This document shows, in pieces, positions 19,946 to 62,089 of a stretch of 64,000 nt of DNA; positions within the stretch are counted from its first letter, which is position 1; every line of letters begins with the position of its first letter. This stretch comes from Candidatus Parcubacteria bacterium. Lineage in GTDB: Bacteria > Patescibacteriota > Patescibacteriia > UBA1558 > GWA2-36-10. Both the position numbers and the translations under genes were made by a program. The notes beneath the pieces were generated by a model. It worked only from the letters and a program-made list of their open reading frames with translations. It ran no database searches and was not told where the DNA came from. Where the stretch lies: NCBI GenBank assembly GCA_018669975.1, contig JABHSK010000005.1:121132-185131 (forward strand), written 5' to 3'.

Positions 19946-19946
19946 A

Positions 19947-27766: not shown

Positions 27767-30001
27767 ATGATAGCCAAAGCCGAACAAAAATTACTGCTAG
27801 CCAATAAGGTTGTCATTGGTTTGATACTACTGACACCACTAATAGTACATAAATTGTTTGTTAATCCTTTTGAAGTGCCCAAGATTTTGTGGTTTAGAAT
27901 TTTAGTAGAGCTATTATTAGTCTTGTATGTTTTATTGTTGGCACAGAACAAGAAATATAAATTAAACTTTCGACATCCTTTAGTAATTAGCGTTCTAGCT
28001 TTTGTAGTAGCCTTATTCCTCAGTGGTATTTTTGGTGTGCAGTGGACTCGTAGTTGGTGGGGGACACTATCACGTAGTAGCGGACTTTTTAATTGGCTGC
28101 ATATACTAGCTTTCTTTTTGATAACCATCTCTATACTAAAAGAAAAAAAAGATTGGTTGCAATTTTGGAAATTTTTTAGCAGCGTTAGTCTATTGGTTTC
28201 TGTTTACGCAATTTTTCAGAAGATAGGCTGGAATGTATATGAGTCAGGTGTTTTTAGGTTGACTGGTACCATTGGTAATGCGGCTATGTTGGCTGGTTAT
28301 TTATTATTTGGTCTATTTGGCTTTGTTTATCTATTGATTAATTCCAAGAATAATTGGTTGCGTTGGTATTATTTATTTGGTGCAATTTTTAATACTATTA
28401 TTATATTTTTGTCTCAGACTCGTAGTGCTATGATTGGCCTGACGGCAGCAGTTTTATTTGCTCTGGTATTCCTGTCTTTTGGTAAAAATGTGACTAAGCA
28501 AGCCAAAAATTGGCTCAGAATAGCCCTTATTTTGTTAGTTTTGATAGTCGGTGGCTTGTTTGCTGCCAAAGATACAGAACTAGTCAAAAGCAATTATTTA
28601 TTGAGTAGATTTACCGATATTAGAATAGACGATACCACCTTGCAGACTCGTTTTTATTCTTGGCGCGGAGGCTTGGAAGCCTGGCAGGACAAGCCTATTT
28701 TTGGTTGGGGTGAAGCTAATTTTAATATTGCTTACAACAACTATTTTGAAGCTAGTTTTTATGACTATGTTAAGGGTGAGACCTGGTTTGATAAAGCTCA
28801 CAATAACCCAGTTGAATATTTGACGGTCAGTGGCGTAATCGGTTTGGTCACCTATCTGGCTATTTTTGTAATTTTAGTTTTGACTATTATCAAATTAAGG
28901 AAAAGAGATCGAATATCTTATATAGAAACGATTTTATTTTTGAGTTTGCTAATAGCTTACTTTATTCATAACTTGATTGTATTTGATTCTATTAGTACCT
29001 TGATTAGCTTTATGCTGTTTATTGGTCTAGTCTATGGATTGAGTCATCGACAAGATGAAGTGGAACCAAAGCAAGCTCAGTTGAAATTTGCTTTAGTTTA
29101 TATTATTGCTGCTGTGTTGATATTTTTATTTGTAAATATTCGTATTAATATTCCAGTTTGGCAATCTACTATGGAATCTCGAAATGTTATGCAATTGATG
29201 CAAGACAGAGATTATAACAACAATGAGTTATACAGTGATTTGCAAAGTAGTATTGATAGAGACCTACCTTGGGATTGGGAGTTGATTGATAATTACACCA
29301 AGCCAATGATGGATTTAATTAGGGATGAACGTATTCACACTAGCATTGATACAGTTGAGAGTACTTTAGAGGTTATGGCTAATCGTATAGAAGAGATAGA
29401 TCAACCTGAGCTTTTGGATGCCAAGATCTACGCTCGCTTTGCTAGAGTTTATACTTTATTATTAGAACTAAATCCTAACGATCCATATTATTCAGAACGA
29501 GCACAGCATTATTTGAATCGTAGTTTAGAATTGAGTGCCGAGAGAATTCCAACTATGTATATTTTGGCACAGGTACACGCTTTCCTGGGAGAGCAGGAAG
29601 AGGCAGTGGTTGTTTTGGATCAAGCTCGTGATCTTAATGACGAAATACCGCAAACCTATTGGTCATATGCTTTGATTTATAGTGCTCAGGAAGATCAAGG
29701 GGAGTTAGTTGTAGCCAATGTAAAAAAAGCCGTTGATTATGGTTTTGAGTTTACGGATATCAATGATGTAGCTAGTGTTTTACCTGTGTTCCAGGCTGAA
29801 AAAGACTATAAAACCCTAGAATATCTATACGTAGAAGCTATTCGTCTAGATTCAAAAAACCCGCAATGGTATGCGAGTTTAGCGGCTATTTATCAAGAGT
29901 TTGGTGATAAACAAAAAGCCATTGAAACAGTTAATAGGATATTAGAAATAGATTCTGCTTATTTTGAGCAGGTCCAGGAGTTTATAAATTCTTTAGAATA
30001 A
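27767..30001 (+). CDS. O-antigen ligase (Wzy_C)-like polytopic membrane protein fused to a C-terminal TPR domain
   Basis: About 12 TM helices with a large loop region, then about 300 aa of TPR repeats. It is a paralog of the gene at 59900-62089. Confidence 0.65.
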   Translation: MIAKAEQKLLLANKVVIGLILLTPLIVHKLFVNPFEVPKILWFRILVELLLVLYVLLLAQNKKYKLNFRHPLVISVLAFVVALFLSGIFGVQWTRSWWGTLSRSSGLFNWLHILAFFLITISILKEKKDWLQFWKFFSSVSLLVSVYAIFQKIGWNVYESGVFRLTGTIGNAAMLAGYLLFGLFGFVYLLINSKNNWLRWYYLFGAIFNTIIIFLSQTRSAMIGLTAAVLFALVFLSFGKNVTKQAKNWLRIALILLVLIVGGLFAAKDTELVKSNYLLSRFTDIRIDDTTLQTRFYSWRGGLEAWQDKPIFGWGEANFNIAYNNYFEASFYDYVKGETWFDKAHNNPVEYLTVSGVIGLVTYLAIFVILVLTIIKLRKRDRISYIETILFLSLLIAYFIHNLIVFDSISTLISFMLFIGLVYGLSHRQDEVEPKQAQLKFALVYIIAAVLIFLFVNIRINIPVWQSTMESRNVMQLMQDRDYNNNELYSDLQSSIDRDLPWDWELIDNYTKPMMDLIRDERIHTSIDTVESTLEVMANRIEEIDQPELLDAKIYARFARVYTLLLELNPNDPYYSERAQHYLNRSLELSAERIPTMYILAQVHAFLGEQEEAVVVLDQARDLNDEIPQTYWSYALIYSAQEDQGELVVANVKKAVDYGFEFTDINDVASVLPVFQAEKDYKTLEYLYVEAIRLDSKNPQWYASLAAIYQEFGDKQKAIETVNRILEIDSAYFEQVQEFINSLE

Positions 30002-31183
30002 TTTTAGATATAAATCTTCAGTCTCTTTGAGGGTCTTGCTCAGGCTGAAGTTTTCTTTTACATTTTTGTAATTGTTGTCTGCTAGTTGATTAGCTAAGTT
30101 TTGGTCTTTGCTTAGTCTACGCATAGCATTTACCAAAGACACAGGATTAGCTGGCGTAGTTAATAGGCCGGTTTTTTCGTTGCTTAAAACTTCGGGAATG
30201 CCACCTACTTTACTGGCGATGATTGGAATCTTGGCTAGTCCAGCTTCTAGGATAGTGTAAGGCAACCCTTCTTTAACAGAAGGTAGTATAAAATAATCAA
30301 AAGCTTGAAGGTATTTCCAATCGTTATCTTTTGGCTTAATGATTTTTATCAAATCTTCCAGTTGATATTTTTCAATCAACTTTTTAATATCAAACAACTC
30401 TATACCCTCACCAATTAAAAGCCACTGATGATTTCTTACCAATAAAGATTTGTTTTCTCTGAGCTGCTTGATAGCCTCTATTAAATATTGATGTCCTTTG
30501 GTATTGTAAAAACTAGCAATAGTGCCAAAATATTTTTTATTATTTGATAAGTCTAGTTTTTGTCTAGCGGTTTGACGATCATAAAAATCGTAGTCTTCAG
30601 CATTAATACCATTATGAACAGAAAATATTTTGCGGGGATCACAGATATTGTTGTCTAAAGCACTTTGTCTATCAAAATCAGAAACAGCAATTATTAAACT
30701 CTGTAGAGAAGTAGAAAATTGTTCGGAAAATTTATAAAGTTTTCGTTGTACTTTTGATCCCGGTTCATTAAAAACAAAACCGTGAGCAGTATAGACGACG
30801 CGAGGTTTTATATTCATAGGATTAAGAGAGAACATCATAGCACCTAAAGTTCCTAATAATCCAACTTTAGAACTATTTAGATGTATTAAATCATAACTTT
30901 CTTTGCTTAATAATCCACTGACACTGGCGATGGCAGAAAAATCTTTTATGATTTCGATATTGCGTACTAGCTTGGGCAGGGGAATAGTCTTTACTTTTAG
31001 CTCTTTGCAAGAGTCTATAAATTTTTGATTTTGCTTGTTTACTTCTCCAAAAGCTATATGTACTTCGTTGTGCTTTTTGAGATATTTTGCTAATTCCAAT
31101 ACATACTTTTGTGCTCCACCCCACTTAGTTTGAGTGACCAGGAGTAGTATTTTTTTGCCTTTTAGTTGTTTTTTATTTGTCAT
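29993..31183 (-). CDS. Glycosyltransferase family 4 (GT-B)
   Basis: The EGLPYTILEAGLAKIPIIASKVGGIPEV motif is the GT4 EX7E region. Confidence 0.8.
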   Translation of the reverse strand: MTNKKQLKGKKILLLVTQTKWGGAQKYVLELAKYLKKHNEVHIAFGEVNKQNQKFIDSCKELKVKTIPLPKLVRNIEIIKDFSAIASVSGLLSKESYDLIHLNSSKVGLLGTLGAMMFSLNPMNIKPRVVYTAHGFVFNEPGSKVQRKLYKFSEQFSTSLQSLIIAVSDFDRQSALDNNICDPRKIFSVHNGINAEDYDFYDRQTARQKLDLSNNKKYFGTIASFYNTKGHQYLIEAIKQLRENKSLLVRNHQWLLIGEGIELFDIKKLIEKYQLEDLIKIIKPKDNDWKYLQAFDYFILPSVKEGLPYTILEAGLAKIPIIASKVGGIPEVLSNEKTGLLTTPANPVSLVNAMRRLSKDQNLANQLADNNYKNVKENFSLSKTLKETEDLYLKLF

Positions 31184-31286
31184 ATTGGGGGTTTTTTACC
31201 TAAAATTAGCCAAATTGTTAATTGATTTATTTTGTAAATACTGGTATAATTTTATAGAATTTATAAATATTAAGCAAGTAGTAGAT

Positions 31287-32444
31287 ATGAAAAAAATAGT
31301 TATTTTTTCTATAGCCTACCATCCTTTCGTGGGTGGTGCAGAAGTGGCTATCAAAGAGATTACTGATCGTTTACCAGACTATGAATATTATTTGATTACT
31401 AACAAATTTAATGCTGAGTGGCCGGACGAAGAAAAAATTGGCAATATCAATGTTCGACGTCTTGGTAAAGGTAAAAAGTGGGATAAATATTTATATCCCT
31501 TTCGAGCTATTCTTTACACCATGAACTTGCACAAAGTAGTAAAGTTTGATTTTGCTTGGAGTATGATGGCTTTTTATGGAGGTCTTGCAGCCCTGTTTCT
31601 AAAATACAAGACAAAGATTCCATACCTGCTGACTTTGCAGAGCGGGGACAGCGATGAATTTTTACGTAAGCGAACTTGGTTTTGGAGCTATTGGTATAAA
31701 AGAATTTATCGTGAACCAAATATTACTCAGGCAATTAGTAAATTTTTGGCTAAACGTTCTCGTAAGATGGGAAACAGAGGTGAGATTGTCCTCATACCCA
31801 ACGGCGTTGATCTAGCAGTTTTTAAAGCTGGTATATCTGAGGAAGCCAAACAGTCAGTCCGTAAAGAATTAAACATTGCCGATGACGAAAAAATATTTAT
31901 CACTACTTCTAGGCTAGCTCTCAAAAATGGTATTGATGATTTGATCAAGTCTATGAATTTCTTGATTTATAAGAGCGGCATTAAAATAAAATTGCTTATT
32001 CTTGGATCTGGTCCTGACGAAGAAAAACTTAAAGCATTAGCTGAAGAGATGAGAGTAAAGGAGCAGATCTTATTTTTAGGACACCGAGATTACAAAGATT
32101 TACCCAAGTATGTAGAGACTGCTGATATTTTTTGCCGACCATCTTTGTCAGAAGGATTAGGTAATTCATTTTTAGAGTCAATGGCAGTTAATACTCCAAT
32201 TATTGGTACAGAGGTCGGTGGAATTCCTGATTTTCTTCATGATGGTGAGACTGGTTTGTTTTGTAAAGTTAGAAACCCAGTTAGCATTGCCCAGGCTGTA
32301 GAGCGTTATGTAAAAGACAAAGAGCTTTATAAAAAGATTCAAGATGCTGGCAGAGAACTAGTACTTGAGAAATATTCTTGGGATTCTGTAGCCAAACAGA
32401 TGAATCAGGTTTTTCAAGAGGTAGACACTAAGAAGGAAAAATAA
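31287..32444 (+). CDS. Glycosyltransferase family 4
   Basis: EGLGNSFLESMAVNTPIIGTEVGGIPD motif. The start was moved to the internal ATG (MKKIVIFS…), because the ORF-track N-terminal extension overlaps the divergent upstream gene. Confidence 0.8.
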   Translation: MKKIVIFSIAYHPFVGGAEVAIKEITDRLPDYEYYLITNKFNAEWPDEEKIGNINVRRLGKGKKWDKYLYPFRAILYTMNLHKVVKFDFAWSMMAFYGGLAALFLKYKTKIPYLLTLQSGDSDEFLRKRTWFWSYWYKRIYREPNITQAISKFLAKRSRKMGNRGEIVLIPNGVDLAVFKAGISEEAKQSVRKELNIADDEKIFITTSRLALKNGIDDLIKSMNFLIYKSGIKIKLLILGSGPDEEKLKALAEEMRVKEQILFLGHRDYKDLPKYVETADIFCRPSLSEGLGNSFLESMAVNTPIIGTEVGGIPDFLHDGETGLFCKVRNPVSIAQAVERYVKDKELYKKIQDAGRELVLEKYSWDSVAKQMNQVFQEVDTKKEK

Positions 32445-32459
32445 TTTTATTAGGCAGCT

Positions 32460-33491
32460 ATGAAAATATTAATCTTAACTCAAAAAGTTGATTATAATGA
32501 CGGAGTGCTAGGGTTTTTTCATAATTGGCTTAAAAAGTTAGCAGAGCGCTTTGAATATATTACTGTTATTTGTTTGGAAAAAGGCGATTGTGATTTACCA
32601 GCTAATGTTGAAGTCTTATCTCTAGGTAAAGAATCTGGCAATGGTCGTTTTACTTATATGCGTTTGTTTTATAAATATATTTTGCAAACCAAAAAGAATT
32701 ACGATGCAGTTTTAGTACACATGAACCCAGAATATGTAGTTTTAGGGGCTTGGCTATGGAAACTATGGGGTAAAAAGATTGCCTTGTGGTACAACCATTC
32801 TTATGGTGACACTAAAGCCACAGCAGCTATTAATTTAGCTCATAAAGTATTTTTTACATCACCCTATGCTTTTGCGACCGGTTTTGAAAAGGCTCAGGCC
32901 ATGCCAGTTGGTATTGATACTGAGCAGTTCAATCCGCAGGACATTAAGAGTGCATCGAGTAGTTTTAAAATTTTAAGCATTGGGCGCATTTCACCAGTAA
33001 AGAATGTTGACACTTTAATTAAGGCAGCGCATATTTTAGAGCAAGATAAATTTGATTTTGTAGTTCATATATATGGTGATGCACCTAGTCGAGATAAAAT
33101 GTATTTTAATACCGTTAAAGAGTCAGCGTCAGATTTAATTAAAAAGGGTAGAGTAGTTTTTCATAAGGGTATAGCTAACATTAAGACACCAGGTGTTTAT
33201 AATCAGCATGATCTATTTGTCAATCTAACGCCAAGCGGTAGTTTTGATAAGACTATTTTAGAATCTATGTCTTGCAAAGTGCCAATTTTAATTTGTAATA
33301 AGTCCCTAGGCAATTTTTTATCAAATGATTTTTTGTTTGAAGAAAACGACACTAAAGATTTGGTTAGGAAAATAAAACATTTAGCTGGAAAAGATTTGCA
33401 GAGCCAGCAAGACAATTTTAGAAAATATGTTATTGAGAAACATAGCCTCAGGGCTTTAATAGAGAAATTTTATCAGGCTTTTAAAAAATAA
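32460..33491 (+). CDS. Glycosyltransferase (GT4-like)
   Basis: GT-B C-terminal domain with …FDKTILESMSCKVPIL…. Confidence 0.6.
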   Translation: MKILILTQKVDYNDGVLGFFHNWLKKLAERFEYITVICLEKGDCDLPANVEVLSLGKESGNGRFTYMRLFYKYILQTKKNYDAVLVHMNPEYVVLGAWLWKLWGKKIALWYNHSYGDTKATAAINLAHKVFFTSPYAFATGFEKAQAMPVGIDTEQFNPQDIKSASSSFKILSIGRISPVKNVDTLIKAAHILEQDKFDFVVHIYGDAPSRDKMYFNTVKESASDLIKKGRVVFHKGIANIKTPGVYNQHDLFVNLTPSGSFDKTILESMSCKVPILICNKSLGNFLSNDFLFEENDTKDLVRKIKHLAGKDLQSQQDNFRKYVIEKHSLRALIEKFYQAFKK

Positions 33492-33494
33492 ATC

Positions 33495-34625: not shown

Positions 34626-34627
34626 TA

Positions 34628-36792: not shown

Positions 36793-36853
36793 TTGACTTT
36801 GTATAGTAAAACTAGTATTATTTTTAAATTAAGAATTAAGTAATAAATTATTT

Positions 36854-37438: not shown

Positions 37439-37443
37439 AACAT

Positions 37444-41661: not shown

Positions 41662-41670
41662 AAATAAAAA

Positions 41671-42117: not shown

Positions 42118-42119
42118 AG

Positions 42120-43943: not shown

Positions 43944-43947
43944 GATA

Positions 43948-44373: not shown

Positions 44374-44392
44374 TTAATTAATTTATACGGTC

Positions 44393-45910: not shown

Positions 45911-45921
45911 AGTACGTATTT

Positions 45922-46728: not shown

Positions 46729-46732
46729 ATTT

Positions 46733-49836: not shown

Positions 49837-49897
49837 AATATTGATAAAAATAGAATTTTGTGTTCTAATAAGGACTACATAACGTTAAAATTTACTA

Positions 49898-52652: not shown

Positions 52653-52655
52653 TTT

Positions 52656-55411: not shown

Positions 55412-55412
55412 A

Positions 55413-56201: not shown

Positions 56202-57454
56202 GAGAAAGCTTTTTTATAGTAAGTGCGGTAGAGAGCGAATAACACAGCCTCTGAAATTATCGTACCAATAATCATTCCCCATAAACCATAAAATTTTAGA
56301 GCTACAAATAATATAACAATTCTAAAGATAGGGCTTATTATTCTAATCGAATAGAGCTCTTTTTGTTTCATTTTAGCTACTAGTACTGTAGATAAAAAAG
56401 TTCTAGGAAAGAATAGTAGAGTTAATACATAGACTTGGGAATATCGTGCAGACTCTATATATTGCGGGAATACAAATTTGTATAGCAATGGTGCCAAGGC
56501 AGCATAAAGTATGATGATAAGGATAACTACTATTTCTAATTTTCTTACCTTTTGTAAAAAAGAATCTTTAATATCTTTTTCGTCTACTTCACTTAGCTTT
56601 GGCAGAGCTAGTGACTTGAGATTCAGCAATACACTTTTGATTTGACTGACTGGTGCGGTAGTAAAAGCATAGATAGCTAATTGAGCAGCACCTAAGTAAT
56701 GGAAAATTAATATTTTATCTACCTGTCCAGCGATAGTCTTCAGTAATTCCATGGCACTTAGATTGAGGCCATAGGAGACTGTTTTAGGATCGTTATCTTT
56801 ATTGAGTGGATGTTTTTTGATATACACCCAAGTAAAGATGAATTGCATGATACTGTCAGGGATCAGAAAGGCTGCTAGTATAAAGAATATGTTATCAGTA
56901 AAAAATAGTGTGCTCAGCATAACGAGGCTGGCAACGATGCGTACCAGGCTATTGTAGGTAGCAGATAGCTTAAAGTCTTTACGACCGTTTAAAACAGCTA
57001 TATATAGGCCAGAAGCCCTTAGTAATGGCAGGAAAACAGCTACCATTACAAAAGATATGGTTAATGTTAGATTAGCACCCATATAATAATAAGATGCAAT
57101 ACCTAAACTACCTAAACTGGCCAATAGGGACCAGCGTAGTTTAGCTACGAAACTAGGCCAATAAACAGCCTCATATTTCCTAGCTACAGCTTGAATAACA
57201 GCCGTATTGATGCCACTCAAGGTAAAAACATTCAACACACCCACCAAAGATAATACGTATCTATAGGTACCGTAGGTTTCTTTAGGGAGTAGATTAGCAA
57301 AAGCGATGGCTAATAAAAAAGCAGCCCCAGAAGAAATAAATTGTCCTAGAGTCAACCAAAAACCACCCTTGGCTAGATAGACCATGTCGGTCTTTGTGTA
57401 TTCCTCACTTTTACGTAGCAAGTGATAAATTTTGTTTTGTAGTTTATCAAGCAT
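56198..57454 (-). CDS. Polysaccharide biosynthesis protein / Wzx-type oligosaccharide flippase (MOP superfamily)
   Basis: About 12-14 TM helices with the typical size (418 aa) and composition, in a glycan-locus context. Confidence 0.65.
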   Translation of the reverse strand: MLDKLQNKIYHLLRKSEEYTKTDMVYLAKGGFWLTLGQFISSGAAFLLAIAFANLLPKETYGTYRYVLSLVGVLNVFTLSGINTAVIQAVARKYEAVYWPSFVAKLRWSLLASLGSLGIASYYYMGANLTLTISFVMVAVFLPLLRASGLYIAVLNGRKDFKLSATYNSLVRIVASLVMLSTLFFTDNIFFILAAFLIPDSIMQFIFTWVYIKKHPLNKDNDPKTVSYGLNLSAMELLKTIAGQVDKILIFHYLGAAQLAIYAFTTAPVSQIKSVLLNLKSLALPKLSEVDEKDIKDSFLQKVRKLEIVVILIIILYAALAPLLYKFVFPQYIESARYSQVYVLTLLFFPRTFLSTVLVAKMKQKELYSIRIISPIFRIVILFVALKFYGLWGMIIGTIISEAVLFALYRTYYKKAFS

Positions 57455-58391
57455 TATCTTTTATCCAAGTGATTGTTTGTCGAAGTCCTCCCTCAAAATC
57501 TATACCTGGTTGGTATCCTAATAATTCAGTAGCTTTACTGATATCGGCTAGTGAGTGTTTAATGTCACCTTGTCGTGGTTCAGAAAATTTGCTAGTGATA
57601 TTTTTTCCTAAAATTTTATTAATAGTAGCTACTAATTCATTTAGCGTATATGCTTTACCACAGGCAATATTAATAGCTTCGCCATGTCCAGCTTTATCAG
57701 AATGCATAGCTAGGATATTAGCTTCAACATTATTTTTTACAAAAGTAAAATCACGACTGTGTTCACCGTCACCAAAAATAGTTGGTGATTCATCTTTTAG
57801 TATAGCTTTTATAAAGAGAGGAATGACAGCAGCATAATCTGATTGCGGATCTTGATTTGGACCAAAGACATTAAAGTATCTTAGGGAGACTGTTTCTAAT
57901 CCGTATAGATTGTAAAATACCTTGCAATAATATTCACCCATCAGTTTGGCGATTGCATAAGGAGAAAGTGGATCATTTTGTAAATCTTCTGATTTATATT
58001 CTTCTTTAGCATCACCATAGACTGATGATGATGAAGCATAGACGACTCTTTTGACTTTAGCATCTCTGGCAGCCTGTAAAATATTTAATATGCCAGTAGC
58101 ATTATTAAAGTGGCTATCCATTGGGGATTCAATTGATCTAGGTACTGACGGCAGAGCTGCTTGATGCAATACAAAATCTACATCAGCAAATTCTTGTTGT
58201 AGTAGTTTAGTGTCATTAATGTCGCCCTCAATAAACTTTATTTTATCTTTGATGGAATCTAGATTGATCAAGCGTCCAGTGCTGAGGTTGTCTAGCACCT
58301 TGACGTTATAGTCTCTGGCCAGTAATTCGCTGGCGATATTAGACCCAATAAAACCGGCACCACCGGTTATTAATACAGTTTGTTTAGCCAT
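57447..58391 (-). CDS. NAD-dependent epimerase/dehydratase (UDP-hexose 4-epimerase-like)
   Basis: The Rossmann motif is VLITGGAGFIGSNI. YAIAK supplies YxxxK. Confidence 0.85.
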   Translation of the reverse strand: MAKQTVLITGGAGFIGSNIASELLARDYNVKVLDNLSTGRLINLDSIKDKIKFIEGDINDTKLLQQEFADVDFVLHQAALPSVPRSIESPMDSHFNNATGILNILQAARDAKVKRVVYASSSSVYGDAKEEYKSEDLQNDPLSPYAIAKLMGEYYCKVFYNLYGLETVSLRYFNVFGPNQDPQSDYAAVIPLFIKAILKDESPTIFGDGEHSRDFTFVKNNVEANILAMHSDKAGHGEAINIACGKAYTLNELVATINKILGKNITSKFSEPRQGDIKHSLADISKATELLGYQPGIDFEGGLRQTITWIKDNA

Positions 58392-58392
58392 T

Positions 58393-59757
58393 TTATCTTC
58401 CTAAAGTTATATTAAATACAGTATTTATAGTTTTGAGGATAATTGAAATATCCAAAGCAATTGAACGATTTTTGATGTAAAAAAGGTCATATTGCAGCTT
58501 TTCTAGGGCATCTTCTACAGAAGAGCCGTAGGGGAAATTGATTTGTGCCCAACCACTTAAGCCGGGTTTTACTAGATGTCTTTCGTTGTAAAAAGATATT
58601 TTTTCTTTTAGTTGGTCTACAAACTCTGGTCTTTCTGGTCGAGGACCAACAAAGCTCATATTGCCTTTAACAATATTCCAGAACTGAGGTATTTCATCAA
58701 TTCTTGCTTTACGTATGAATTTGCCGATGCCAGTAACGCGAGCATCATTTTTACTAGCCCATTGAGCTCCACTTTTTTCAGCATCTTGAACCATGGAGCG
58801 GAATTTATAAACTGTAAAGATTTTTCCATTAAGTCCAACTCTTTTTTGTTTATAGATAAGAGGTCCTTTTGAGCCAGTCTTTATCAGGATAGCTATGATT
58901 GGTATAAAGAGTAGTGAAATTAAACCAAATAAAGAAGCAAAAAAGATATCAATTACTCTTTTAACTATCGCAAACCATTGCTCATTTTTTTGAGTAAAGT
59001 TTTCTAGAAACCAATTTCTTTCCAGTGAGGTGACTGGCACCTTGCCAGTGAGCTTTTCATAAAAGTCTGTTAGATTGAAATACTGTATTTTTAAATCAAT
59101 GCTTTCAAATAAGTATTTAGCTACCTCAGGACCATAGCGTGTATCGTTGACAGCTACCACGGTATTTATTTTGTGCTTGATGAGTTGATTTTTAAGATCA
59201 GCAATGTCTTTGCTCATGGTGACCACTTGAAATTTTTCAGGGATAACTGCATGATCAGGGTTTATAATTAACTTTAGCTTATAACCAAGTTGTGGTTTGG
59301 TGATAGTTTCTTCAGCTAATAAGAGTGATTCAGGTGTGACACCAATGATAGCTAGGTTAGCGCCCATTGTAGAACTGGAAATAATTTTGTAAAAAAGTTT
59401 CCGCCATAACAGGAACAGGACAGTAAATACTACTAAAAGTATCAATAGTATAGTTTGAGGCTTTAAATAGCTAAAGCGTCCTAGGATCAAGTAAAAAAAC
59501 AGCACTGCCAGTAGTGCATTGATGGCTAGGTTTTGTATTAGGTGACCAAAAAATTTAAAGTCATTTTCTGCTTTACGTATCTCATATAGTCCATTGATAA
59601 AGAATACGATAACCCATATACTAAATACCAACGAAAAAGGTCCAAGGTGTTCCTGCCATAATTGACTATCAAGACGTCCATATCTGAGTAATAGGGTTAG
59701 GGCGAGACTAGTATACAGCAAGGCAACGTCGACCAGGAATAAGACAAATTTTTTCAT
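58393..59757 (-). CDS. Polyprenyl-phosphate hexose-1-phosphate transferase (WbaP/bacterial sugar transferase family); priming enzyme
   Basis: N-terminal TM helices, then the conserved C-terminal domain …KRVIDIFFASLFGL…YKFRSM…DEIPQFWNIVKGNMSFVGPRPERPEF. Confidence 0.85.
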   Translation of the reverse strand: MKKFVLFLVDVALLYTSLALTLLLRYGRLDSQLWQEHLGPFSLVFSIWVIVFFINGLYEIRKAENDFKFFGHLIQNLAINALLAVLFFYLILGRFSYLKPQTILLILLVVFTVLFLLWRKLFYKIISSSTMGANLAIIGVTPESLLLAEETITKPQLGYKLKLIINPDHAVIPEKFQVVTMSKDIADLKNQLIKHKINTVVAVNDTRYGPEVAKYLFESIDLKIQYFNLTDFYEKLTGKVPVTSLERNWFLENFTQKNEQWFAIVKRVIDIFFASLFGLISLLFIPIIAILIKTGSKGPLIYKQKRVGLNGKIFTVYKFRSMVQDAEKSGAQWASKNDARVTGIGKFIRKARIDEIPQFWNIVKGNMSFVGPRPERPEFVDQLKEKISFYNERHLVKPGLSGWAQINFPYGSSVEDALEKLQYDLFYIKNRSIALDISIILKTINTVFNITLGR

Positions 59758-59899: not shown

Positions 59900-62089
59900 T
59901 TGTATATGATAAACAAGATTATCACTGCTAACCAAGATAAGGATATCAATTTTTATCTTAGAATTTTGATTAAACTTGGTTTAGCTTTAATTCTATTTTT
60001 GCCGTTGGTGACTAATAGTGATTTTTATTTCCCCTTTATAGTGCCTAGAAATTTATTATTCAGATTTATTCTGATTGTAATTCTAGCATTATATACTTAC
60101 TTATTTTTGAAGGATAAACAATTTAGACCAAAATTCAACAAGGCTTTTATTATATTCTGCGCGTTTATTTTCTCTCTAACAGTTTCCAGCTTGTTAGGAG
60201 GAAATTTTCCTTTTAGTTTTTGGAGTAATTATGAGAGGATGGATGGTTTATCAAATTGGTATTTTTTGATTGTTTATGTAGTGATAATGTTGGGCACCCT
60301 TCGTAATAGGCAGGATTGGAAACAATTTTTTAATATTAGTATAGTAGCGGCCTGGTTAATTAGTTGGTATGGTTTAGCTCAAAAACTTGGCTGGGACCAA
60401 AATCTAAACTTTATTATGGCTTCTACTGGAGGTTCTAGGATTGCTTCCACTCTTGGTAATGCAGCCTATGTTGGTTCCTATATGTTTATGCATATTATAC
60501 TTTCTTTGTACCTGCTTATTATTACCATTATGAAAAAGCAGTTAATTTCTTTCAAGACTTTTTGGTATGTTCTGAGTTTGATGTTGTTTACAGCCGTGTT
60601 GATATTAACTCAAACACGTGGGGCATTTTTAGGCTTAGCTTTATTCTTATTCTTATTGGTTATATTTTATTTGTGGTTTAACAGAAATAAAATAAATGCC
60701 TGGTATTATGTAGTAGCAGCCTTACTAATTAGCGGGGTTTTATTTACTGGATTATTGTTTCAGCAAAAAGAGAGCGCCTGGGTTAACAACGTGTTGTTGT
60801 TCCAAAAAATAACAGATGTATCCTTATCGGATACTACTGTGGAGTCACGTTTATCTATCTGGCAAAATAGTTTTAAAGGTTATTTGGATAAACCTGTGTT
60901 GGGTTGGGGAGATGAAAATTTTCAATATGTATTTAATAAATATTTTCCTGTAGAGATTTATCATAGTATTAACTCAGAAGTATGGTTTGACCGTCCTCAC
61001 AATATTTTAATTCAACACCTGATACACGGCGGATCTATTGGCTTGGGGTTATATTTAGGTATGTTTGCTTATCTAATATATGCGCTAATTAAAAAATATA
61101 AGAAAGACAAGCAATGGTTTTTCAGTTTTTTCTGGATAGCATTTTTGGTAAGCTTCTTACTTCATGATATGTTTATTTTTGATAGTATAAACACCAATGT
61201 TACTCTTTATTTAATGCTAGCCTTCCTCTTTAAAATAGGGGTTTCTGATGGTTATAAGCACATTAATCTGCCTATAAAAAAGAAAGATTATTACCGTGCG
61301 GGAGGTGTAGTTATCTTGGGTGTTATCTTGACTGTATTTATGGTCTGGCGACCAATGCAAGGTAATCTATTGTTAATGAGTTCCCTGCAAAAGGTGTCAC
61401 AGTTACGACCAACAAACAACAGTGTGATGATAGAGCAGTCTAATTCAGGATTTTTTAGAGAGGCTATAGACGACTGGAAGCGTTCACGTGATATTAGCTT
61501 CTTAGGTGATAAAGAAAAAGGTGAGGTTCTACTAAGGATTTTCCAGGGCACTACTAGGGCCACTTATCTTAAGCCTGAAAATCAAGAGGAGATATTTGAA
61601 TTAACGCAAGAATATCTAGAAACTATATCGGATCGTTATCCCAAAGACGTTAGGCAAAATTTATTCTTATCATATTTTTATAATGTGCTCAGTGGTACAA
61701 ATTTAAATTTCTCTATTAAGAATGTCGAGTTACTGGAAGGATTGAAAGATTGGGCAACACAACGACCAGATGTCTACACACAACTTTCACATGCTTATTT
61801 GATGGTGGGTGATTTTGATGCTGGTCTAGAAACAGCCTTGCAAGCTCAGGAGCTTGTACCAGAAACAAAATTTGTCTATTGGAATTTACTCAATGCATAT
61901 GTAGTGACTGGGGATATAGGAAATATCCAAAATACTTTAGAAAAAATTATTATTATTAACTTGAGGGATAATGGGCGACCATTTGAATTGCCAGAAATGC
62001 AACAGTTACAGGTTTTGATGTCTCAAGCAGAGAAAAATAATCAACCAGAAATAAAACAAGCTATAGAAGCCTATCTTCTACAGGAATAA
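59900..62089 (+). CDS. O-antigen ligase (Wzy_C)-like membrane protein fused to a C-terminal TPR domain (paralog of 27767-30001)
   Basis: Same architecture and length class as the first copy; the N-terminal regions align. Confidence 0.65.
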   Translation: MYMINKIITANQDKDINFYLRILIKLGLALILFLPLVTNSDFYFPFIVPRNLLFRFILIVILALYTYLFLKDKQFRPKFNKAFIIFCAFIFSLTVSSLLGGNFPFSFWSNYERMDGLSNWYFLIVYVVIMLGTLRNRQDWKQFFNISIVAAWLISWYGLAQKLGWDQNLNFIMASTGGSRIASTLGNAAYVGSYMFMHIILSLYLLIITIMKKQLISFKTFWYVLSLMLFTAVLILTQTRGAFLGLALFLFLLVIFYLWFNRNKINAWYYVVAALLISGVLFTGLLFQQKESAWVNNVLLFQKITDVSLSDTTVESRLSIWQNSFKGYLDKPVLGWGDENFQYVFNKYFPVEIYHSINSEVWFDRPHNILIQHLIHGGSIGLGLYLGMFAYLIYALIKKYKKDKQWFFSFFWIAFLVSFLLHDMFIFDSINTNVTLYLMLAFLFKIGVSDGYKHINLPIKKKDYYRAGGVVILGVILTVFMVWRPMQGNLLLMSSLQKVSQLRPTNNSVMIEQSNSGFFREAIDDWKRSRDISFLGDKEKGEVLLRIFQGTTRATYLKPENQEEIFELTQEYLETISDRYPKDVRQNLFLSYFYNVLSGTNLNFSIKNVELLEGLKDWATQRPDVYTQLSHAYLMVGDFDAGLETALQAQELVPETKFVYWNLLNAYVVTGDIGNIQNTLEKIIIINLRDNGRPFELPEMQQLQVLMSQAEKNNQPEIKQAIEAYLLQE

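What the first reader, a model, noticed from the sequence alone, without database searches (positions are those of the whole stretch)
27767..62089. Glycan locus bracketed by two Wzy_C-TPR fusion paralogs, next to a giant Ser/Thr-rich secreted protein: possible protein O-glycosylation system
The roughly 32-kb glycan locus is bracketed by two diverged paralogs (27767-30001 and 59900-62089). Each combines an O-antigen-ligase-like polytopic domain with a C-terminal TPR array of about 300 aa. Wzy_C-domain enzymes include the PglL/PilO protein O-oligosaccharyltransferases, and TPR arrays are protein-recognition modules. Immediately upstream is a 1306-aa signal-peptide-bearing S/T/G/D-rich protein, which is a plausible acceptor. 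A separate membrane-anchored TPR protein (27151-27762) sits between them. This looks like a dedicated surface-protein glycosylation system rather than an LPS pathway, which Gram-positive-like CPR cells lack.
Basis: inference. Interest (0 to 1): 0.55.

Follow-up and report, generated by a model that had tools for sequence, protein, structure and literature searches.

The report
Candidate surface-protein glycosylation locus in Parcubacteria
In this ultra-small (CPR/Parcubacteria) bacterium, a 133-kDa secreted surface protein is encoded next to two ligase-like membrane enzymes and a large sugar-building gene cluster. This gene order recurs across many related genomes and most likely marks a system that attaches a complex glycan to the cell's main surface protein, although no experiment shows this yet.

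Summary
Proteins A (27767-30001) and B (59900-62089) are 26%-identical paralogues. Each has a Wzy_C/WaaL-fold domain of 13 transmembrane (TM) helices and a 250-280 aa TPR domain outside the cell. They bracket a glycan locus with a phosphoglycosyltransferase (PGT), a Wzx flippase, 8 GT4 and 1 GT2 glycosyltransferases, and methylases.

The key new result is synteny. In 17 of 20 evaluable species-representative genomes, plus three metagenome contexts, the order is ECF sigma, DUF5667, ~1250-aa "giant" protein, small membrane-anchored TPR protein, 1-3 Wzy_C-TPR genes, conserved GT4. Seventeen shorter paralogues that share only the giant's N-terminal domain have no such neighbours.

All 32 Wzy_C-TPR proteins keep the Arg/Arg/His active-site residues. 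The giant is an acidic Sec-secreted chain of Ig-like domains with its own terminator.

The layout mirrors Gram-positive S-layer glycosylation clusters (sgsE-wsaA-wsaB; WsfB). My best reading is dedicated O-glycosylation of an S-layer-like protein (confidence about 0.5). The main rival is ligation or polymerisation of an envelope glycopolymer that anchors that protein (about 0.3).

In passing, I found an unannotated, covariation-supported structured RNA leader of about 350 nt upstream of the giant gene. Overall this is a new variant of a known kind.

The parts
20753..21328 (+). ECF-type sigma factor, the first gene of the conserved module
   Evidence: Pfam Sigma70_r2, r4_2 and ECF. Orthologues at 56-71% identity sit directly upstream in 19 loci with close giant orthologues, and at 40-45% identity in the more distant ones.
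21339..22703 (+). DUF5667 single-pass membrane protein with a very acidic 366-aa outside domain; inferred anti-sigma factor
   Evidence: Pfam DUF5667. One TM helix at about aa 63-88. Always follows the sigma gene.
22757..23116 (+). Conserved structured RNA leader of the giant gene. It comprises the P1 hairpin at about 22772-22838, the invariant palindrome AATCGCGCGCGA, and further helices in 22979-23062.
   Evidence: Nucleotide conservation across 19 loci. P1 has 22 pairs, 98.9% of cells paired, 9 compensatory pairs, and is reached by 0 of 500 shuffles. Covariation is also seen in the 3' half. There is no Rfam hit at E<=1. The covariance model finds one + strand hit per locus, always upstream of the giant gene.
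23117..27037 (+). Giant secreted surface protein: 1306 aa, mature mass 133 kDa, pI 4.1. It has a signal peptide, an N-terminal alpha/beta domain of about 190 aa shared with other surface proteins, and then tandem Ig-like beta-sandwich domains. It is the proposed glycan acceptor and a candidate S-layer-like protein.
   Evidence: Translation and composition. No Pfam or NCBIfam hit. It belongs to a family of 1100-1600-aa proteins: 236 clusters at E<=1e-30. AF2 pLDDT is 85, with Foldseek hits to Gram-positive adhesin Ig-like domains.
27064..27089 (.). Strong GC-rich hairpin (GAAAAGCCCCC-TAAC-GGGGGCTTTTC) acting as a terminator after the giant gene, which makes the gene its own transcription unit
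   Evidence: Terminator scan and sequence.
27151..27762 (+). Membrane-anchored TPR protein (203 aa): N-terminal TM helix, TPR domain outside the cell
   Evidence: Pfam TPR_14, TPR_2 and TPR_12. TM helix at aa 4-22. An equivalent protein of 194-258 aa occupies this position in most loci, and 8 of 10 tested have TPR hits. WsaA is a published analogue (PMC2943079).
27767..30001 (+). Wzy_C-TPR protein A: WaaL-fold domain of 13 TM helices with R219/R295/H345, plus an outside TPR domain (aa 486-743). It is the proposed O-oligosaccharyltransferase for the giant protein.
   Evidence: Pfam. AF2 pLDDT 93.4. Foldseek top hit is WaaL 7tpg_B at TMt 0.68. Invariant residues. Topology. Synteny.
29993..31183 (-). 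Divergently transcribed GT4 glycosyltransferase, among the best-conserved proteins of the module (51-67% identity across close loci, similar to the sigma factor)
   Evidence: Pfam GT4. Orthologues flank the Wzy_C-TPR genes in nearly all loci. No NCBIfam hit reaches its cut-off.
31134..38400 (+). Five GT4 glycosyltransferases (31134-32444, 32460-33491, 33495-34625, 34628-35701, 35677-36792), a methyltransferase (36854-37438) and an NAD-dependent epimerase/dehydratase (37444-38400)
   Evidence: Pfam.
38457..40415 (-). B12-binding radical-SAM enzyme resembling KedN5-type C-methyltransferases; a compositional outlier
   Evidence: Pfam and NCBIfam. GC 0.45 and CAI 0.46, against about 0.34 and 0.6 for its neighbours.
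40573..56201 (+). Central glycan-building block:
- UDP-GlcNAc 2-epimerase
- GtrA x2
- AsnB-type amidotransferase
- polyprenyl-P-sugar-synthase-like GT2 (44393-45274)
- 4 methyltransferases
- unknown 563-aa membrane protein with about 10 TM helices (46733-48424)
- second B12-rSAM enzyme
- 2 GT4
- FemAB-like protein
- deacetylase-like protein
- CDP-alcohol-phosphatidyltransferase-like protein
   Evidence: Pfam and NCBIfam. The 563-aa ORF has only 21 homologues, none with a Pfam domain, and no PDB match.
56198..59757 (-). Wzx-type flippase (56198-57454), TviC/GalE-like epimerase (57447-58391) and the initiating polyprenyl-phosphate glycosylphosphotransferase (58393-59757)
   Evidence: Pfam Polysacc_synt, Epimerase and Bac_transf. 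The PGT passes the TIGR03025 cut-off at 374.5 bits against 295.6.
59900..62089 (+). Wzy_C-TPR protein B, a paralogue of A that is divergent from the PGT gene. It is either a second en-bloc transferase or the polymerase of the pathway.
   Evidence: Pfam Wzy_C. TPR. 26% identity to A. Active-site residues are kept. The same PGT(-)|Wzy_C-TPR(+) layout is seen in L048 and L051.

Best explanation
This is a dedicated O-glycosylation module for the cell's major surface protein, in a Candidatus Parcubacteria bacterium.

**Steps shown by domain and family assignment:**
- A Bac_transf phosphoglycosyltransferase starts a glycan on a polyprenyl phosphate.
- Eight GT4 and one GT2 glycosyltransferases extend it.
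- Five SAM methyltransferases, two B12-radical-SAM enzymes, an amidotransferase and epimerases decorate it.
- A Wzx-type flippase moves the lipid-linked glycan to the outer face of the membrane.

**Inferred steps:**
- Wzy_C-TPR protein A, a WaaL-fold enzyme with Arg/Arg/His facing outward, transfers the glycan en bloc to Ser, Thr or Tyr of the 133-kDa giant protein as it leaves the Sec channel.
- The acceptor is recognised by A's extracellular TPR superhelix, helped by the separate membrane-anchored TPR protein.
- B is either a second transferase with different specificity or the Wzy polymerase that lengthens the glycan first.
- The giant protein is an S-layer-like coat protein, held on the wall by its N-terminal domain.
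- Its expression is controlled by the adjacent ECF sigma/anti-sigma pair and a structured RNA leader.
For: 1. **Enzyme.** A and B are Wzy_C proteins. A's AF2 model (pLDDT 93.4) has WaaL 7TPG as its best and only membrane-protein match.
2. **Active site.** R103, R295, D342 and H345 are invariant, and R219 and D/E407 nearly so, in all 32 locus proteins. This matches the Arg/His active site described for WaaL and PglS (PMC12800693).
3. **Topology.** K/R-rich loops lie inside. A 13th TM helix places the 250-280 aa TPR domain outside, next to the catalytic loop. This is the 13-TM plus C-terminal periplasmic domain plan of the O-OTase PglS (PMC12800693). TacL (397 aa) and WaaL (about 400 aa), which use lipid acceptors, are far shorter and carry no TPR tail (PMC5727136).
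4. **Synteny.** The order sigma, DUF5667, giant, small TPR protein, Wzy_C-TPR x1-3, GT4 is found in:
   - L001 and the P0003 contig;
   - L002/L003 at 35% identity, with three tandem copies and no adjacent glycan locus;
   - 17 of 20 evaluable GTDB-representative loci;
   - L049.

   None of 17 shorter paralogues with the same N-terminal domain has such neighbours.
5. **Substrate adjacency.** Dedicated O-OTases are typically encoded next to their substrates (PMC12645811).
6. **Direct precedent.** WsfB is Wzy_C plus TPR. wsaA (a TPR protein) lies just upstream of wsaB and near the S-layer gene sgsE. Both systems also have Bac_transf initiators and an Asn-synthase homologue (PMC2943079).
7. **Acceptor.** The giant has a signal peptide, pI 4.1, 23% S+T and 2 Cys, and Ig-like domain arrays resembling Gram-positive adhesins. 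It has its own terminator and one of the two highest CAI values among the non-ribosomal genes scored in the window.
8. **No competing machinery.** No chain-length regulator (Wzz/CpsCD) or LCP ligase is found among the ORFs scanned in the window.
Against: - There is no direct evidence that the giant protein is glycosylated.
- The Wzy_C family includes ligases to lipids (WaaL, TacL) and Wzy polymerases, and sequence cannot separate them (PMC12645811).
- The PglL_A and Wzy_C_2 domains that mark PglL/PglS are not detected.
- TPR domains are also scaffolds in polysaccharide export.
- Up to three paralogues sit beside a single putative substrate.
- Three of 20 loci (L018, L024, L041) have the giant gene without an adjacent Wzy_C-TPR.
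- Wzy_C-TPR genes also occur away from any giant gene.
- A GT4 is among the best-conserved proteins of the module, as conserved as the sigma factor, and the Wzy_C-TPR transferase is much less conserved.
- The GtrA/GT2/563-aa membrane protein set could be a different extracytoplasmic glycosylation route.
Confidence: 0.5

Rival explanations
1. Envelope-glycopolymer ligase or polymerase model. The locus makes a secondary cell-wall polymer or lipoglycan. The Wzy_C-TPR proteins polymerise it and/or ligate it to a membrane glycolipid or wall acceptor, as TacL does for pneumococcal lipoteichoic acid. The giant protein is not glycosylated. Instead it binds this polymer non-covalently through its conserved N-terminal domain. 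That would explain the linkage in the same way that S-layer genes sit next to genes for their anchoring polymer in Firmicutes.
For: - TacL is a Wzy_C enzyme in a Gram-positive that ligates a Und-PP-linked polymer to Glc-diacylglycerol (PMC5727136).
- The giant's N-terminal domain of about 190 aa is shared by several shorter surface proteins per genome, for example 4 loci on CAZEWH01 contigs. This is typical of wall-binding modules.
- A GT4 is among the best-conserved module proteins (51-67% identity). Its neighbour, 31134-32444, has sub-threshold similarity to monoglucosyl-diacylglycerol and LTA-anchor synthases.
- B sits at the edge of the glycan locus, divergent from the PGT, as in L051. Any pathway-terminal enzyme would be expected there.
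Against: - TacL (397 aa) and WaaL (about 400 aa) have no extracytoplasmic TPR tail (PMC5727136). All 32 proteins here carry one (apart from one ORF cut by the locus end), and there is also a separate TPR protein.
- The linkage is to the full-length giant gene only. It is not seen with the other proteins that carry the presumed wall-binding domain.
- In L002/L003 three copies sit by the giant gene with no glycan genes nearby.
- The GT4 similarities to glycolipid synthases are far below the family cut-offs.
Confidence: 0.3
2. Division-of-labour model. B, next to PGT and Wzx, is the Wzy repeat-unit polymerase of a Wzx/Wzy pathway. Only A, next to the giant gene, is the terminal transferase. The two paralogues therefore do different chemistry. 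This is a refinement that is compatible with either acceptor.
For: - Wzx and PGT are present, and no other candidate polymerase with a known domain exists in the locus.
- A has a weak NCBIfam hit to 'oligosaccharide repeat unit polymerase', below its cut-off.
- At least two deep paralogue clades co-occur in fixed order in L007, L013, L031 and L035.
- The PGT|Wzy_C-TPR adjacency recurs.
Against: - No chain-length regulator is present in the window.
- Nine glycosyltransferases fit a long non-repeating oligosaccharide that would need no polymerase.
- A and B share the same active-site residues and the same TPR tail.
- The NJ tree does not resolve B with the other PGT-adjacent copies.
Confidence: 0.3
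3. The protein glycosyltransferase is instead the GtrA / polyprenyl-P-sugar synthase (GT2) / 563-aa polytopic membrane protein set. This would work like the three-component PgfS/GT-C or PMT-type systems. The Wzy_C-TPR proteins would then serve a separate polysaccharide.
For: - GT2 44393-45274 resembles AglJ, ArnC, PgfS and PpgS polyprenyl-phosphate sugar synthases, though below their cut-offs.
- Two GtrA genes flank it.
- The 563-aa ORF has about 10 TM helices plus a 160-aa tail.
- Similar unknown membrane proteins follow GtrA in L001.
Against: - The 563-aa family has no recognisable GT-C signature, Pfam domain or PDB relative.
- This gene set is not part of the conserved neighbourhood of the giant gene.
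- Such three-component systems usually add single side-branch sugars.
Confidence: 0.1

Closest known systems
S-layer glycosylation (slg) clusters of Geobacillus stearothermophilus NRS 2004/3a (sgsE, wsaA, wsaB ... wsaP) and Paenibacillus alvei (wsfB, wsfP, wsfA)
   Same: - A Wzy_C-domain transferase, either with a C-terminal TPR (WsfB) or with a small TPR protein encoded just upstream (WsaA/WsaB).
- The surface-protein gene lies nearby and is transcribed on its own.
- A Bac_transf initiating enzyme.
- An asparagine-synthase homologue and methyltransferases in the cluster.

These features are described in PMC2943079. Here.
   Different: - Both arrangements are present at once here: a TPR fusion and a separate TPR protein.
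- There are 1-3 paralogous transferases.
- The TPR domain is much longer, about 280 aa in 7 repeat pairs.
- Export uses a Wzx flippase, not the Wzm/Wzt ABC transporter.
- The acceptor has no SLH domains and belongs to an unannotated CPR family.
- An ECF sigma/anti-sigma pair and a structured RNA leader belong to the conserved unit.
- Sequence relatedness to WsaB or WsfB themselves was not tested.
PglL / PglS / TfpO O-oligosaccharyltransferases of Gram-negative bacteria
   Same: - WaaL-like core with outward-facing Arg and catalytic His.
- 13 TM helices followed by a C-terminal extracytoplasmic domain (PglS, PMC12800693).
- En-bloc transfer from Und-PP-glycan made by a PGT, glycosyltransferases and a Wzx-like flippase.
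- Dedicated members are encoded next to their substrate (PMC12645811).
   Different: - The PglL_A and Wzy_C_2 domains are not detected.
- The C-terminal domain is a long canonical TPR array.
- The organism is a monoderm-like CPR bacterium with no periplasm or pilin substrate.
- Identity to any solved or characterised member is very low: 16% to WaaL in the structural alignment.
WaaL O-antigen ligase (PDB 7TPG/7TPJ)
   Same: It is the best structural match to A's membrane domain: Foldseek E 1.9e-6, TMt 0.68 over 443 columns. It also shares the Wzy_C domain.
   Different: - WaaL is about 400 aa with no TPR tail.
- Its acceptor is lipid A-core. Parcubacteria are reported not to make it (PMC5220378, a different genome), and no LPS genes occur in this window.
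TacL, the lipoteichoic-acid ligase of Streptococcus pneumoniae
   Same: It is a Wzy_C enzyme in a bacterium without LPS, and it ends a Und-PP-linked, flippase-dependent glycopolymer pathway (PMC5727136).
   Different: - It is 397 aa with no TPR.
- Its acceptor is a glycolipid.
- It is not reported to be linked to a surface-protein gene.
TPR-bearing protein glycosyltransferases (OGT/SPINDLY; eukaryotic TMTC O-mannosyltransferases)
   Same: A TPR superhelix is fused to a glycosyltransferase and used to select protein acceptors. A's TPR region matches OGT and SPY TPR structures in Foldseek and in the profile search.
   Different: - The catalytic folds are unrelated (GT-B, or GT-C with DUF1736).
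- The TPR match is generic to the repeat.
- Knowledge of TMTC function is from my own memory, not from a paper read here.

Membership tests
Wzy_C / O-antigen-ligase-like superfamily (PF04932, WaaL fold) | Significant match to the Wzy_C profile | tested here: met
   A scores 78.4 bits and B 76.8 bits, against a cut-off of 31.7.
Wzy_C / O-antigen-ligase-like superfamily (PF04932, WaaL fold) | WaaL-like polytopic fold | tested here: met
   A's AF2 model has pLDDT 93.4. The Foldseek top hit is 7tpg_B at TMt 0.68. B was not modelled.
Wzy_C / O-antigen-ligase-like superfamily (PF04932, WaaL fold) | Conserved Arg residues and a catalytic His in extracytoplasmic loops | tested here: met
   R295 and H345 are invariant, and R219 is R in 29 of 32 proteins (K in 2, S in 1). 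Their outside location is inferred from the positive-inside rule.
WaaL (LPS O-antigen ligase) | Protein of about 400 aa without an extra extracytoplasmic domain | tested here: not met
   A is 744 aa and B 729 aa, each with a 13th TM helix and a TPR tail of 283 or 246 aa.
WaaL (LPS O-antigen ligase) | Lipid A-core acceptor present in the organism | not testable with these tools
   Only 64 kb of the genome was seen, and it contains no LPS genes. Absence of lpxC and kdsA is reported for another Parcubacterium (PMC5220378).
PglL/PglS-class O-oligosaccharyltransferases | PglL_A and Wzy_C_2 domains alongside the Wzy_C core (PMC12645811) | tested here: not met
   Neither family appears in the Pfam scan at E<=0.01.
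PglL/PglS-class O-oligosaccharyltransferases | 13 TM helices plus a C-terminal extracytoplasmic domain (PMC12800693) | tested here: met
   13 TM helices, then aa 463-744 outside. The domain type (TPR) differs.
PglL/PglS-class O-oligosaccharyltransferases | Acidic residue about 55 aa after the catalytic His (PglL E404 / PglS E379) | tested here: inconclusive
   D/E is present at A position 407, which is H345+62, in 31 of 32 proteins. Structural equivalence was not checked.
PglL/PglS-class O-oligosaccharyltransferases | Demonstrated transfer of glycan to Ser/Thr of a protein | not testable with these tools
   This needs glycoproteomics or reconstitution.
Gram-positive slg (S-layer glycosylation) cluster with WsaB/WsfB-type O-OTase | Wzy_C transferase with a C-terminal TPR, or an adjacent small TPR protein | tested here: met
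   Both are present: the A/B TPR tails and the 203-aa TPR protein 4 nt upstream of A. The family features are from PMC2943079.
Gram-positive slg (S-layer glycosylation) cluster with WsaB/WsfB-type O-OTase | Target S-layer gene nearby and monocistronic | tested here: inconclusive
   The giant gene is adjacent and has its own terminator. That it forms an S-layer is unproven.
Gram-positive slg (S-layer glycosylation) cluster with WsaB/WsfB-type O-OTase | Bac_transf (WsaP/WsfP-type) initiating enzyme | tested here: met
   Bac_transf E 6.5e-67. TIGR03025 is passed above its cut-off.
Gram-positive slg (S-layer glycosylation) cluster with WsaB/WsfB-type O-OTase | Wzm/Wzt ABC-transporter export (a general feature of slg clusters per PMC2943079) | tested here: not met
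   No ABC-transporter genes are present. A Wzx-type Polysacc_synt flippase is present instead.
Gram-positive slg (S-layer glycosylation) cluster with WsaB/WsfB-type O-OTase | Sequence homology to WsaB or WsfB closer than to other Wzy_C proteins | not tested
Wzy repeat-unit polymerase (Wzx/Wzy pathway) | Encoded with Wzx and a PGT in a glycan locus | tested here: met
   B is divergent from the PGT, with Wzx 2.4 kb away. L048 and L051 show the same layout.
Wzy repeat-unit polymerase (Wzx/Wzy pathway) | Partner chain-length regulator (Wzz/PCP, CpsC/D) | tested here: not met
   None was found among the ORFs scanned in the window. One could be encoded elsewhere in the genome.
TacL-type lipoteichoic-acid ligase | Wzy_C protein of about 400 aa acting on a glycolipid anchor | tested here: inconclusive
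   The Wzy_C domain is present but the architecture differs (TPR tail). Nearby GT4s show only sub-threshold similarity to glycolipid synthases: 101.6 bits against a cut-off of 400.
Bacterial S-layer protein (for the giant protein) | Sec signal peptide, mass of 40-200 kDa, acidic pI, few or no Cys, modular anchor plus assembly domains | tested here: met
   133 kDa, pI 4.1, 2 Cys, signal peptide. An N-terminal shared domain is followed by Ig-like arrays. General S-layer properties are from PMC12175726.
Bacterial S-layer protein (for the giant protein) | Forms a 2D lattice and is the most abundant envelope protein | not testable with these tools
   The only indirect evidence is CAI: 0.66 for the giant against 0.69 for ribosomal proteins.

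The most novel reading that the evidence does not exclude
The conserved unit is ECF sigma/anti-sigma, structured RNA leader, ~1250-aa Ig-like protein, membrane TPR protein and Wzy_C-TPR enzymes. On the most novel reading, this unit encodes the so-far unidentified S-layer of Parcubacteria and related Patescibacteria, together with its own O-glycosylation machine. The Wzy_C-long-TPR proteins would then form a new class of protein O-oligosaccharyltransferases, in which an extracellular TPR superhelix selects the acceptor. The leader would be a new cis-regulatory RNA controlling coat-protein output.
Probability: 0.3. Interest if true: 0.75.

Novelty: new variant of a known kind. Interest (0 to 1): 0.58.

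Why it matters
The cell envelope of CPR/Patescibacteria is a recognised gap. One genome paper states that its formation and structure 'remain unclear' and only speculates about a glycosylated S-layer (PMC5220378).

This analysis makes the question testable in three ways:
- **A candidate coat protein.** It names a concrete, widespread family: 236 clusters at 50% identity with E<=1e-30, none annotated.
- **A candidate modification machine.** It ties that protein by conserved gene order to a specific set of enzymes with intact active sites.
- **Defined mutants and assays.** H345A and R295A substitutions, giant-protein fragments, and a ΔwaaL E. coli host.

If the enzymes are O-OTases, they would broaden the toolbox for bioconjugate engineering. 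They would also show how episymbiotic ultra-small bacteria decorate the surface that contacts their hosts. The structured leader RNA is a separate new regulatory element worth describing.

Tried and rejected
- **Locus scan with the full-length giant alignment (A1).** I used an N-terminal-domain alignment (A2) instead.
- **Sequence search of PDB with A's membrane domain alone.** It found nothing. Only the full-length query gave a weak WaaL hit, E 0.006, so the fold assignment rests on AF2 plus Foldseek.
- **NCBIfam.** It gave only sub-threshold hits for A (IctB and the repeat-unit polymerase family) and only a sub-threshold TPR hit for B. It could not separate ligase, polymerase and OTase roles.
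- **Tracing B's orthologues.** Among the homologues of A, none is closer than about 30% to B. The metagenome scan returned only one near-identical relative, L048. The NJ tree is star-like at depth and does not place B reliably. Whether B is an ancient functional class is therefore unresolved.
- **The 563-aa membrane protein (46733-48424).** Its only Pfam hit is a sub-threshold match to DUF6057 (E 0.006, 16 bits against a cut-off of 29.8). It has no NCBIfam hit, only 21 CPR homologues without domains, and no PDB profile hit. I cannot say whether it is a GT-C enzyme or a polymerase.
- **Rfam and ARAGORN.** They found nothing in the window.
- **Codon adaptation.** It gives only weak support for high expression of the giant gene.
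- **Rejected: chance adjacency.** The count is 17 of 20 against 0 of 17.
- **Rejected: LPS O-antigen ligation.** The architecture is wrong and the acceptor is presumably absent.
- **Rejected: the IctB-like 'bicarbonate transporter' label.** The score is 33.8 bits against a cut-off of 366.

Full report

Yes. The ORF list contains A (27767-30001, +, 744 aa) and B (59900-62089, +, 729 aa).
- Both hit Pfam Wzy_C at 78.4 and 76.8 bits, against a cut-off of 31.7.
- A has several Pfam TPR hits between aa 577 and 735.
- B has no Pfam TPR hit, but aa 621-684 match designed consensus TPR proteins (E 2.6e-20).
- A profile of the family matches TPR structures at E 2e-120 and the TPR domains of OGT.
- A and B align end to end at 26% identity, E 3e-65.

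The upstream genes also match the description.
- The ORF at 23117-27037 encodes a 1306-aa protein with a typical Sec signal peptide. It has 23% Ser+Thr, pI 4.1 and two Cys.
- The ORF at 27151-27762 encodes a 203-aa protein with one N-terminal TM helix and TPR repeats.

An identical protein is deposited as HOB10_03170 from a Candidatus Parcubacteria bacterium, on a contig of up to 844 kb. The first 13.6 kb of the window holds the EF-Tu / S10 / spc ribosomal operon with SecY, Adk and Map.

**2. What lies between and around A and B?**

Between A and B are the following genes:
- eight GT4 and one GT2 glycosyltransferases;
- five SAM methyltransferases and two B12-binding radical-SAM enzymes;
- an AsnB-type amidotransferase and a UDP-GlcNAc 2-epimerase;
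- two NAD-dependent epimerase/dehydratases;
- two GtrA proteins;
- a FemAB-like protein and a deacetylase-like protein;
- a CDP-alcohol-phosphatidyltransferase-like protein;
- an unknown 563-aa polytopic membrane protein;
- on the minus strand next to B, a Wzx-type flippase, a TviC/GalE-like epimerase and a Bac_transf phosphoglycosyltransferase that passes the TIGR03025 cut-off.

This is a lipid-linked, flippase-dependent pathway for a complex, heavily methylated glycan. No chain-length regulator (Wzz/CpsCD) and no LCP ligase was found among the ORFs scanned in the window.

Upstream of the giant gene are an ECF sigma factor (20753-21328) and a DUF5667 single-pass membrane protein with a very acidic 366-aa outside domain (21339-22703). 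The latter sits where an anti-sigma factor would be expected.

**3. The enzymes**

I aligned A with 47 homologues and B (alignment A3).
- G106, R295, G313, G315, H345 and G356 are invariant.
- R103, R219, N318, D342, N346 and F406 are conserved in at least 90% of sequences.

In a second set of 32 Wzy_C-TPR proteins taken from the related loci, R103, R295, D342 and H345 are present in all. R219 is R in 29 and K in 2. Position 407 is D or E in 31. Every paralogue therefore looks catalytically competent.

AlphaFold2 on A3 gave a very confident model, with pLDDT 93.4 and pTM 0.89. It has 13 transmembrane helices, several short helices in the loop at 267-346, and 14 C-terminal helices at 486-743.

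Foldseek against the PDB put the WaaL O-antigen ligase 7TPG first (E 1.9e-6, TMt 0.68, 443 columns, 16% identity). WaaL was the only membrane protein among the hits listed. The remaining listed hits were TPR and related helical-repeat proteins, including OGT and SPINDLY.

The short K/R-rich loops (aa 61-70, 124-126, 238-243, 376-384) mark the cytoplasmic side. This places the 267-346 loop, with R295 and H345, outside. The 13th helix (442-462) then carries the acidic TPR tail outside as well. This topology is an inference from the positive-inside rule.

Two papers read here frame the interpretation.
- The O-OTase PglS is described as a WaaL-like protein with 13 TM helices, a C-terminal periplasmic domain, Arg residues and a catalytic His (PMC12800693).
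- TacL and WaaL, which use lipid acceptors, are about 400 aa with no such tail (PMC5727136).

**4. The key new evidence: conserved gene order**

*Close relatives.* Homologues of A at 52-53% identity lie in the same order: sigma, DUF5667, ~1300-aa protein, ~200-aa TPR protein, Wzy_C-TPR, divergent GT4, more GT4s.

*A 35% homologue.* L002/L003 has sigma, DUF5667, a 1322-aa protein, an fn3-like protein, a TPR protein, a methyltransferase and then three tandem Wzy_C-TPR genes. No glycan locus is adjacent.

*Systematic scan.* I scanned one genome per GTDB species with the giant's N-terminal domain (41 loci). I then compared the window's proteins with all ORFs of those loci by BLAST.
- Of 20 loci with a full-length giant orthologue and enough downstream sequence, 17 have one or two Wzy_C-TPR genes within 1.4 kb of its stop codon. 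Most of these are followed by the orthologue of the divergent GT4.
- Wherever upstream sequence was available, the loci have the sigma/DUF5667 pair upstream.
- The three exceptions are L018, L024 and L041.
- Seventeen other ORFs in these loci carry only the N-terminal domain, in shorter proteins of 234-777 aa, several per genome. None has a Wzy_C neighbour within the flanks, and none has the sigma/DUF5667 pair; three have only a distantly related ECF sigma gene nearby.

*The gap between the giant and the first Wzy_C-TPR.* It usually holds a 194-258-aa protein with an N-terminal TM helix. Eight of ten tested have Pfam TPR hits.

*A more distant lineage.* L049, whose Wzy_C-TPR cluster (P0025) includes a Candidatus Magasanikbacteria entry, has the same module.

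*Where the linkage is absent.* The Wzy_C-TPR family is wider than this linkage.
- Some copies are not next to a giant gene (L004, L006).
- One locus has three tandem copies among cohesin/dockerin-like surface proteins (L050).
- One copy sits divergent from the PGT at the edge of a glycan locus (L051). This is exactly B's position here and in a close relative (L048).

*Consequence for the 'bracketing'.* It is not the conserved feature. There are two recurrent contexts, beside the giant gene and beside the PGT, and this genome joins them. An NJ tree shows several deep paralogue clades, two of which co-occur in fixed order in four genomes. It does not place B reliably.

**5. The giant protein**

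It has no Pfam or NCBIfam match. It nevertheless belongs to a large family of collinear proteins.
- The word-indexed search returned 119 hits, mostly 1170-1350 aa. Three distant members carry SLH domains.
- The body alone (aa 231-1306) finds 236 representative clusters at E<=1e-30 and 479 at E<=1e-10, in proteins of mostly 1100-1600 aa.

AF2 of aa 1-620 (pLDDT 85) shows an alpha/beta domain at aa 36-225 followed by tandem beta-sandwich domains. Foldseek matches these to Ig-like domains of Gram-positive surface adhesins (SdrC, PrgB, antigen I/II, Srr2, FnBPA) and to integrin legs.

The gene ends in a strong GC hairpin terminator at 27064-27089. Its CAI is 0.66, measured against the window's ribosomal genes (mean 0.69). 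That is second only to the DUF5667 gene among the other genes, which is weak evidence.

Size, acidity, low Cys content, modularity and monocistronic expression all fit an S-layer-like coat protein (general properties from PMC12175726). That CPR cells show a surface layer by cryo-EM is my recollection of Luef et al. 2015, not something read here.

**6. Comparison with known systems**

The closest match is the Gram-positive S-layer glycosylation cluster. The review PMC2943079 states the following:
- WsaB and WsfB, the predicted O-OTases for S-layer proteins, carry Wzy_C.
- WsfB and PglL have a C-terminal TPR motif.
- WsaB lacks one, but wsaA, just upstream, encodes a 168-aa TPR protein.
- sgsE, the S-layer gene, lies close to the cluster and is transcribed alone.
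- The clusters contain Bac_transf initiators and an Asn-synthase homologue.

WsfB is cited as the enzyme that links the glycan to tyrosines of SpaA (bioRxiv 10.1101/2020.05.20.105809).

The review PMC12645811 adds two points. The Wzy_C/WaaL-like domains alone cannot identify an O-OTase. Dedicated O-OTases (TfpO, TfpM, PglS) are usually encoded next to their substrates. The present module meets the adjacency criterion strongly. It lacks the PglL_A and Wzy_C_2 domains, so it is not a member of the PglL/PglS class.

It differs from the slg clusters in six ways:
- it uses Wzx rather than an ABC transporter;
- it has both a TPR fusion and a separate TPR protein;
- its TPR domain is much longer;
- it has 1-3 paralogous enzymes;
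- the acceptor family is different;
- it includes the sigma/anti-sigma pair and the leader RNA.

**7. Verdict on mechanism**

The best-supported reading, at about 0.5, is en-bloc O-glycosylation of the giant surface protein by A. Acceptor recognition would be through the extracellular TPR domain and the small TPR protein. B would be either a second transferase or the polymerase.

The main rival, at about 0.3, is that these enzymes ligate or polymerise an envelope glycopolymer that the giant protein binds through its shared N-terminal domain.
- In favour: TacL shows that Wzy_C enzymes do this in bacteria without LPS (PMC5727136). Both the conserved GT4 and the multi-copy N-terminal domain fit the idea.
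- Against: the TPR tail, which TacL lacks; the specific linkage to the full-length giant gene only; and the L002 arrangement without glycan genes.

A minor rival is that the GtrA / polyprenyl-P-sugar-synthase-like GT2 / 563-aa membrane protein set is the protein-modifying route. That gene set is not part of the conserved neighbourhood, and the 563-aa protein has no recognisable fold relatives.

None of these can be settled by sequence analysis alone.

**8. Side finding: a structured RNA leader**

The 413-nt spacer between the DUF5667 gene and the giant gene is conserved at nucleotide level in 19 loci whose giant proteins are only 30-68% identical.
- RNAalifold predicts a 22-pair hairpin at about window 22772-22838. 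On 16 sequences, 98.9% of cells are paired, against at most 51% when the partner is slid by 1-3 columns.
- Nine pairs show compensatory changes, and none of 500 shuffles reaches the observed values.
- An invariant G-U pair fixes the strand as +.
- An invariant palindrome, AATCGCGCGCGA, follows the hairpin.
- The 3' half has further covarying helices.
- Rfam has no match even at E<=1.
- A covariance model built from the hairpin region finds one + strand hit per locus, always just upstream of a full-length giant gene. It also finds loci that were not in the seed: L012 (105 bits), L013, L025, L024 and L014. It finds nothing near the shorter paralogues, and nothing in L002, L041 or L049.

I read this as an undescribed 5' leader, regulatory or stabilising, of the coat-protein mRNA. 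A semi-conserved GCG(A/C)-N~15-TAGTC sequence just upstream of the hairpin could be the promoter for the adjacent ECF sigma. That last point is inference only.

**9. Novelty and score**

The enzyme architecture (Wzy_C plus TPR) and the idea of S-layer O-glycosylation are known. Three things are new: the conserved CPR-wide module, the identification of a candidate coat-protein family, and the leader RNA. I rate this a new variant of a known kind, with interest of about 0.58. It turns an open question, what covers CPR cells and how it is made, into specific experiments. The central functional claim remains inferred.

Noticed in passing
window 22757-23116 (+); also L001 5053-5372, and about 9640-10000 in L007-L023: A conserved structured RNA leader of about 350 nt lies upstream of the giant gene. 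It has a 22-pair hairpin with 9 compensatory pairs, the invariant palindrome AATCGCGCGCGA, and further covarying helices. Rfam has no match at E<=1. The covariance model finds exactly one + strand copy per locus, always before a full-length giant gene.
   Followed up: partly
window 23200-23800 (giant aa 30-225); L026-L046: The giant's N-terminal alpha/beta domain of about 190 aa contains three similar sub-repeats with a VYY..G.....F motif. It is shared by several shorter secreted proteins per genome, for example four loci on CAZEWH01 contigs and three each on JABJNO01 and JAQUKX01. It has no Pfam family. It looks like a CPR-specific wall- or envelope-anchoring module.
   Followed up: partly
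window 38457-40415 (-): The B12-binding radical-SAM gene, which resembles KedN5-type C-methyltransferases, is a compositional outlier. Its GC is 0.45, GC3 0.43 and CAI 0.46, against about 0.34, 0.27 and 0.6 for its neighbours. It is one of the few minus-strand genes inside the locus, the others being the divergent GT4 and the Wzx-epimerase-PGT block. It was probably acquired recently.
   Followed up: no
window 41671-48424 (+): This block holds GtrA, an AsnB-like amidotransferase, a second GtrA, a GT2 resembling polyprenyl-P-sugar synthases (AglJ/ArnC/PgfS-like), two methyltransferases and a 563-aa membrane protein with about 10 TM helices. That protein belongs to a small CPR-only family: 21 hits, no Pfam domain and no PDB relative. 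The set may be a three-component extracytoplasmic glycosylation system with a new type of membrane transferase.
   Followed up: partly
window 62214-63772 (+): Immediately downstream of B are a protein with an MCP signalling domain (380 aa) and a CheW-like protein (138 aa). These are chemotaxis-type signalling genes in a reduced CPR genome.
   Followed up: no
window 13977-15044 (+): A Glycos_transf_4 (MraY/WecA-type) polyprenyl-phosphate sugar-1-P transferase is encoded about 0.4 kb downstream of map, at the end of the ribosomal-protein/SecY/Adk/Map operon. It could be a second initiating enzyme for envelope glycans.
   Followed up: no
L050 9001-16299 (NCBI GCA_964643365.1; the P0033 cluster also includes a Candidatus Nealsonbacteria entry): Three tandem Wzy_C-TPR genes of about 800 aa each lie among cohesin- and dockerin-like surface proteins and a 3859-aa protein. 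This is a different surface-protein context for the same enzyme family.
   Followed up: no
window 18001-20400: A local GC rise to 0.43 covers three ORFs (18571-19230, 19270-19905, 20017-20364). None has a Pfam match. They are followed by a terminator-like hairpin at 20374-20393.
   Followed up: no
L014 9049-9600: The spacer upstream of the giant gene in this locus has been expanded by several hundred bases of repetitive GC-rich sequence (repeated GGCAGAGACAATGGTAGATTCTATCGCTCG-like units). The repeats are inserted inside and before the leader hairpin.
   Followed up: no
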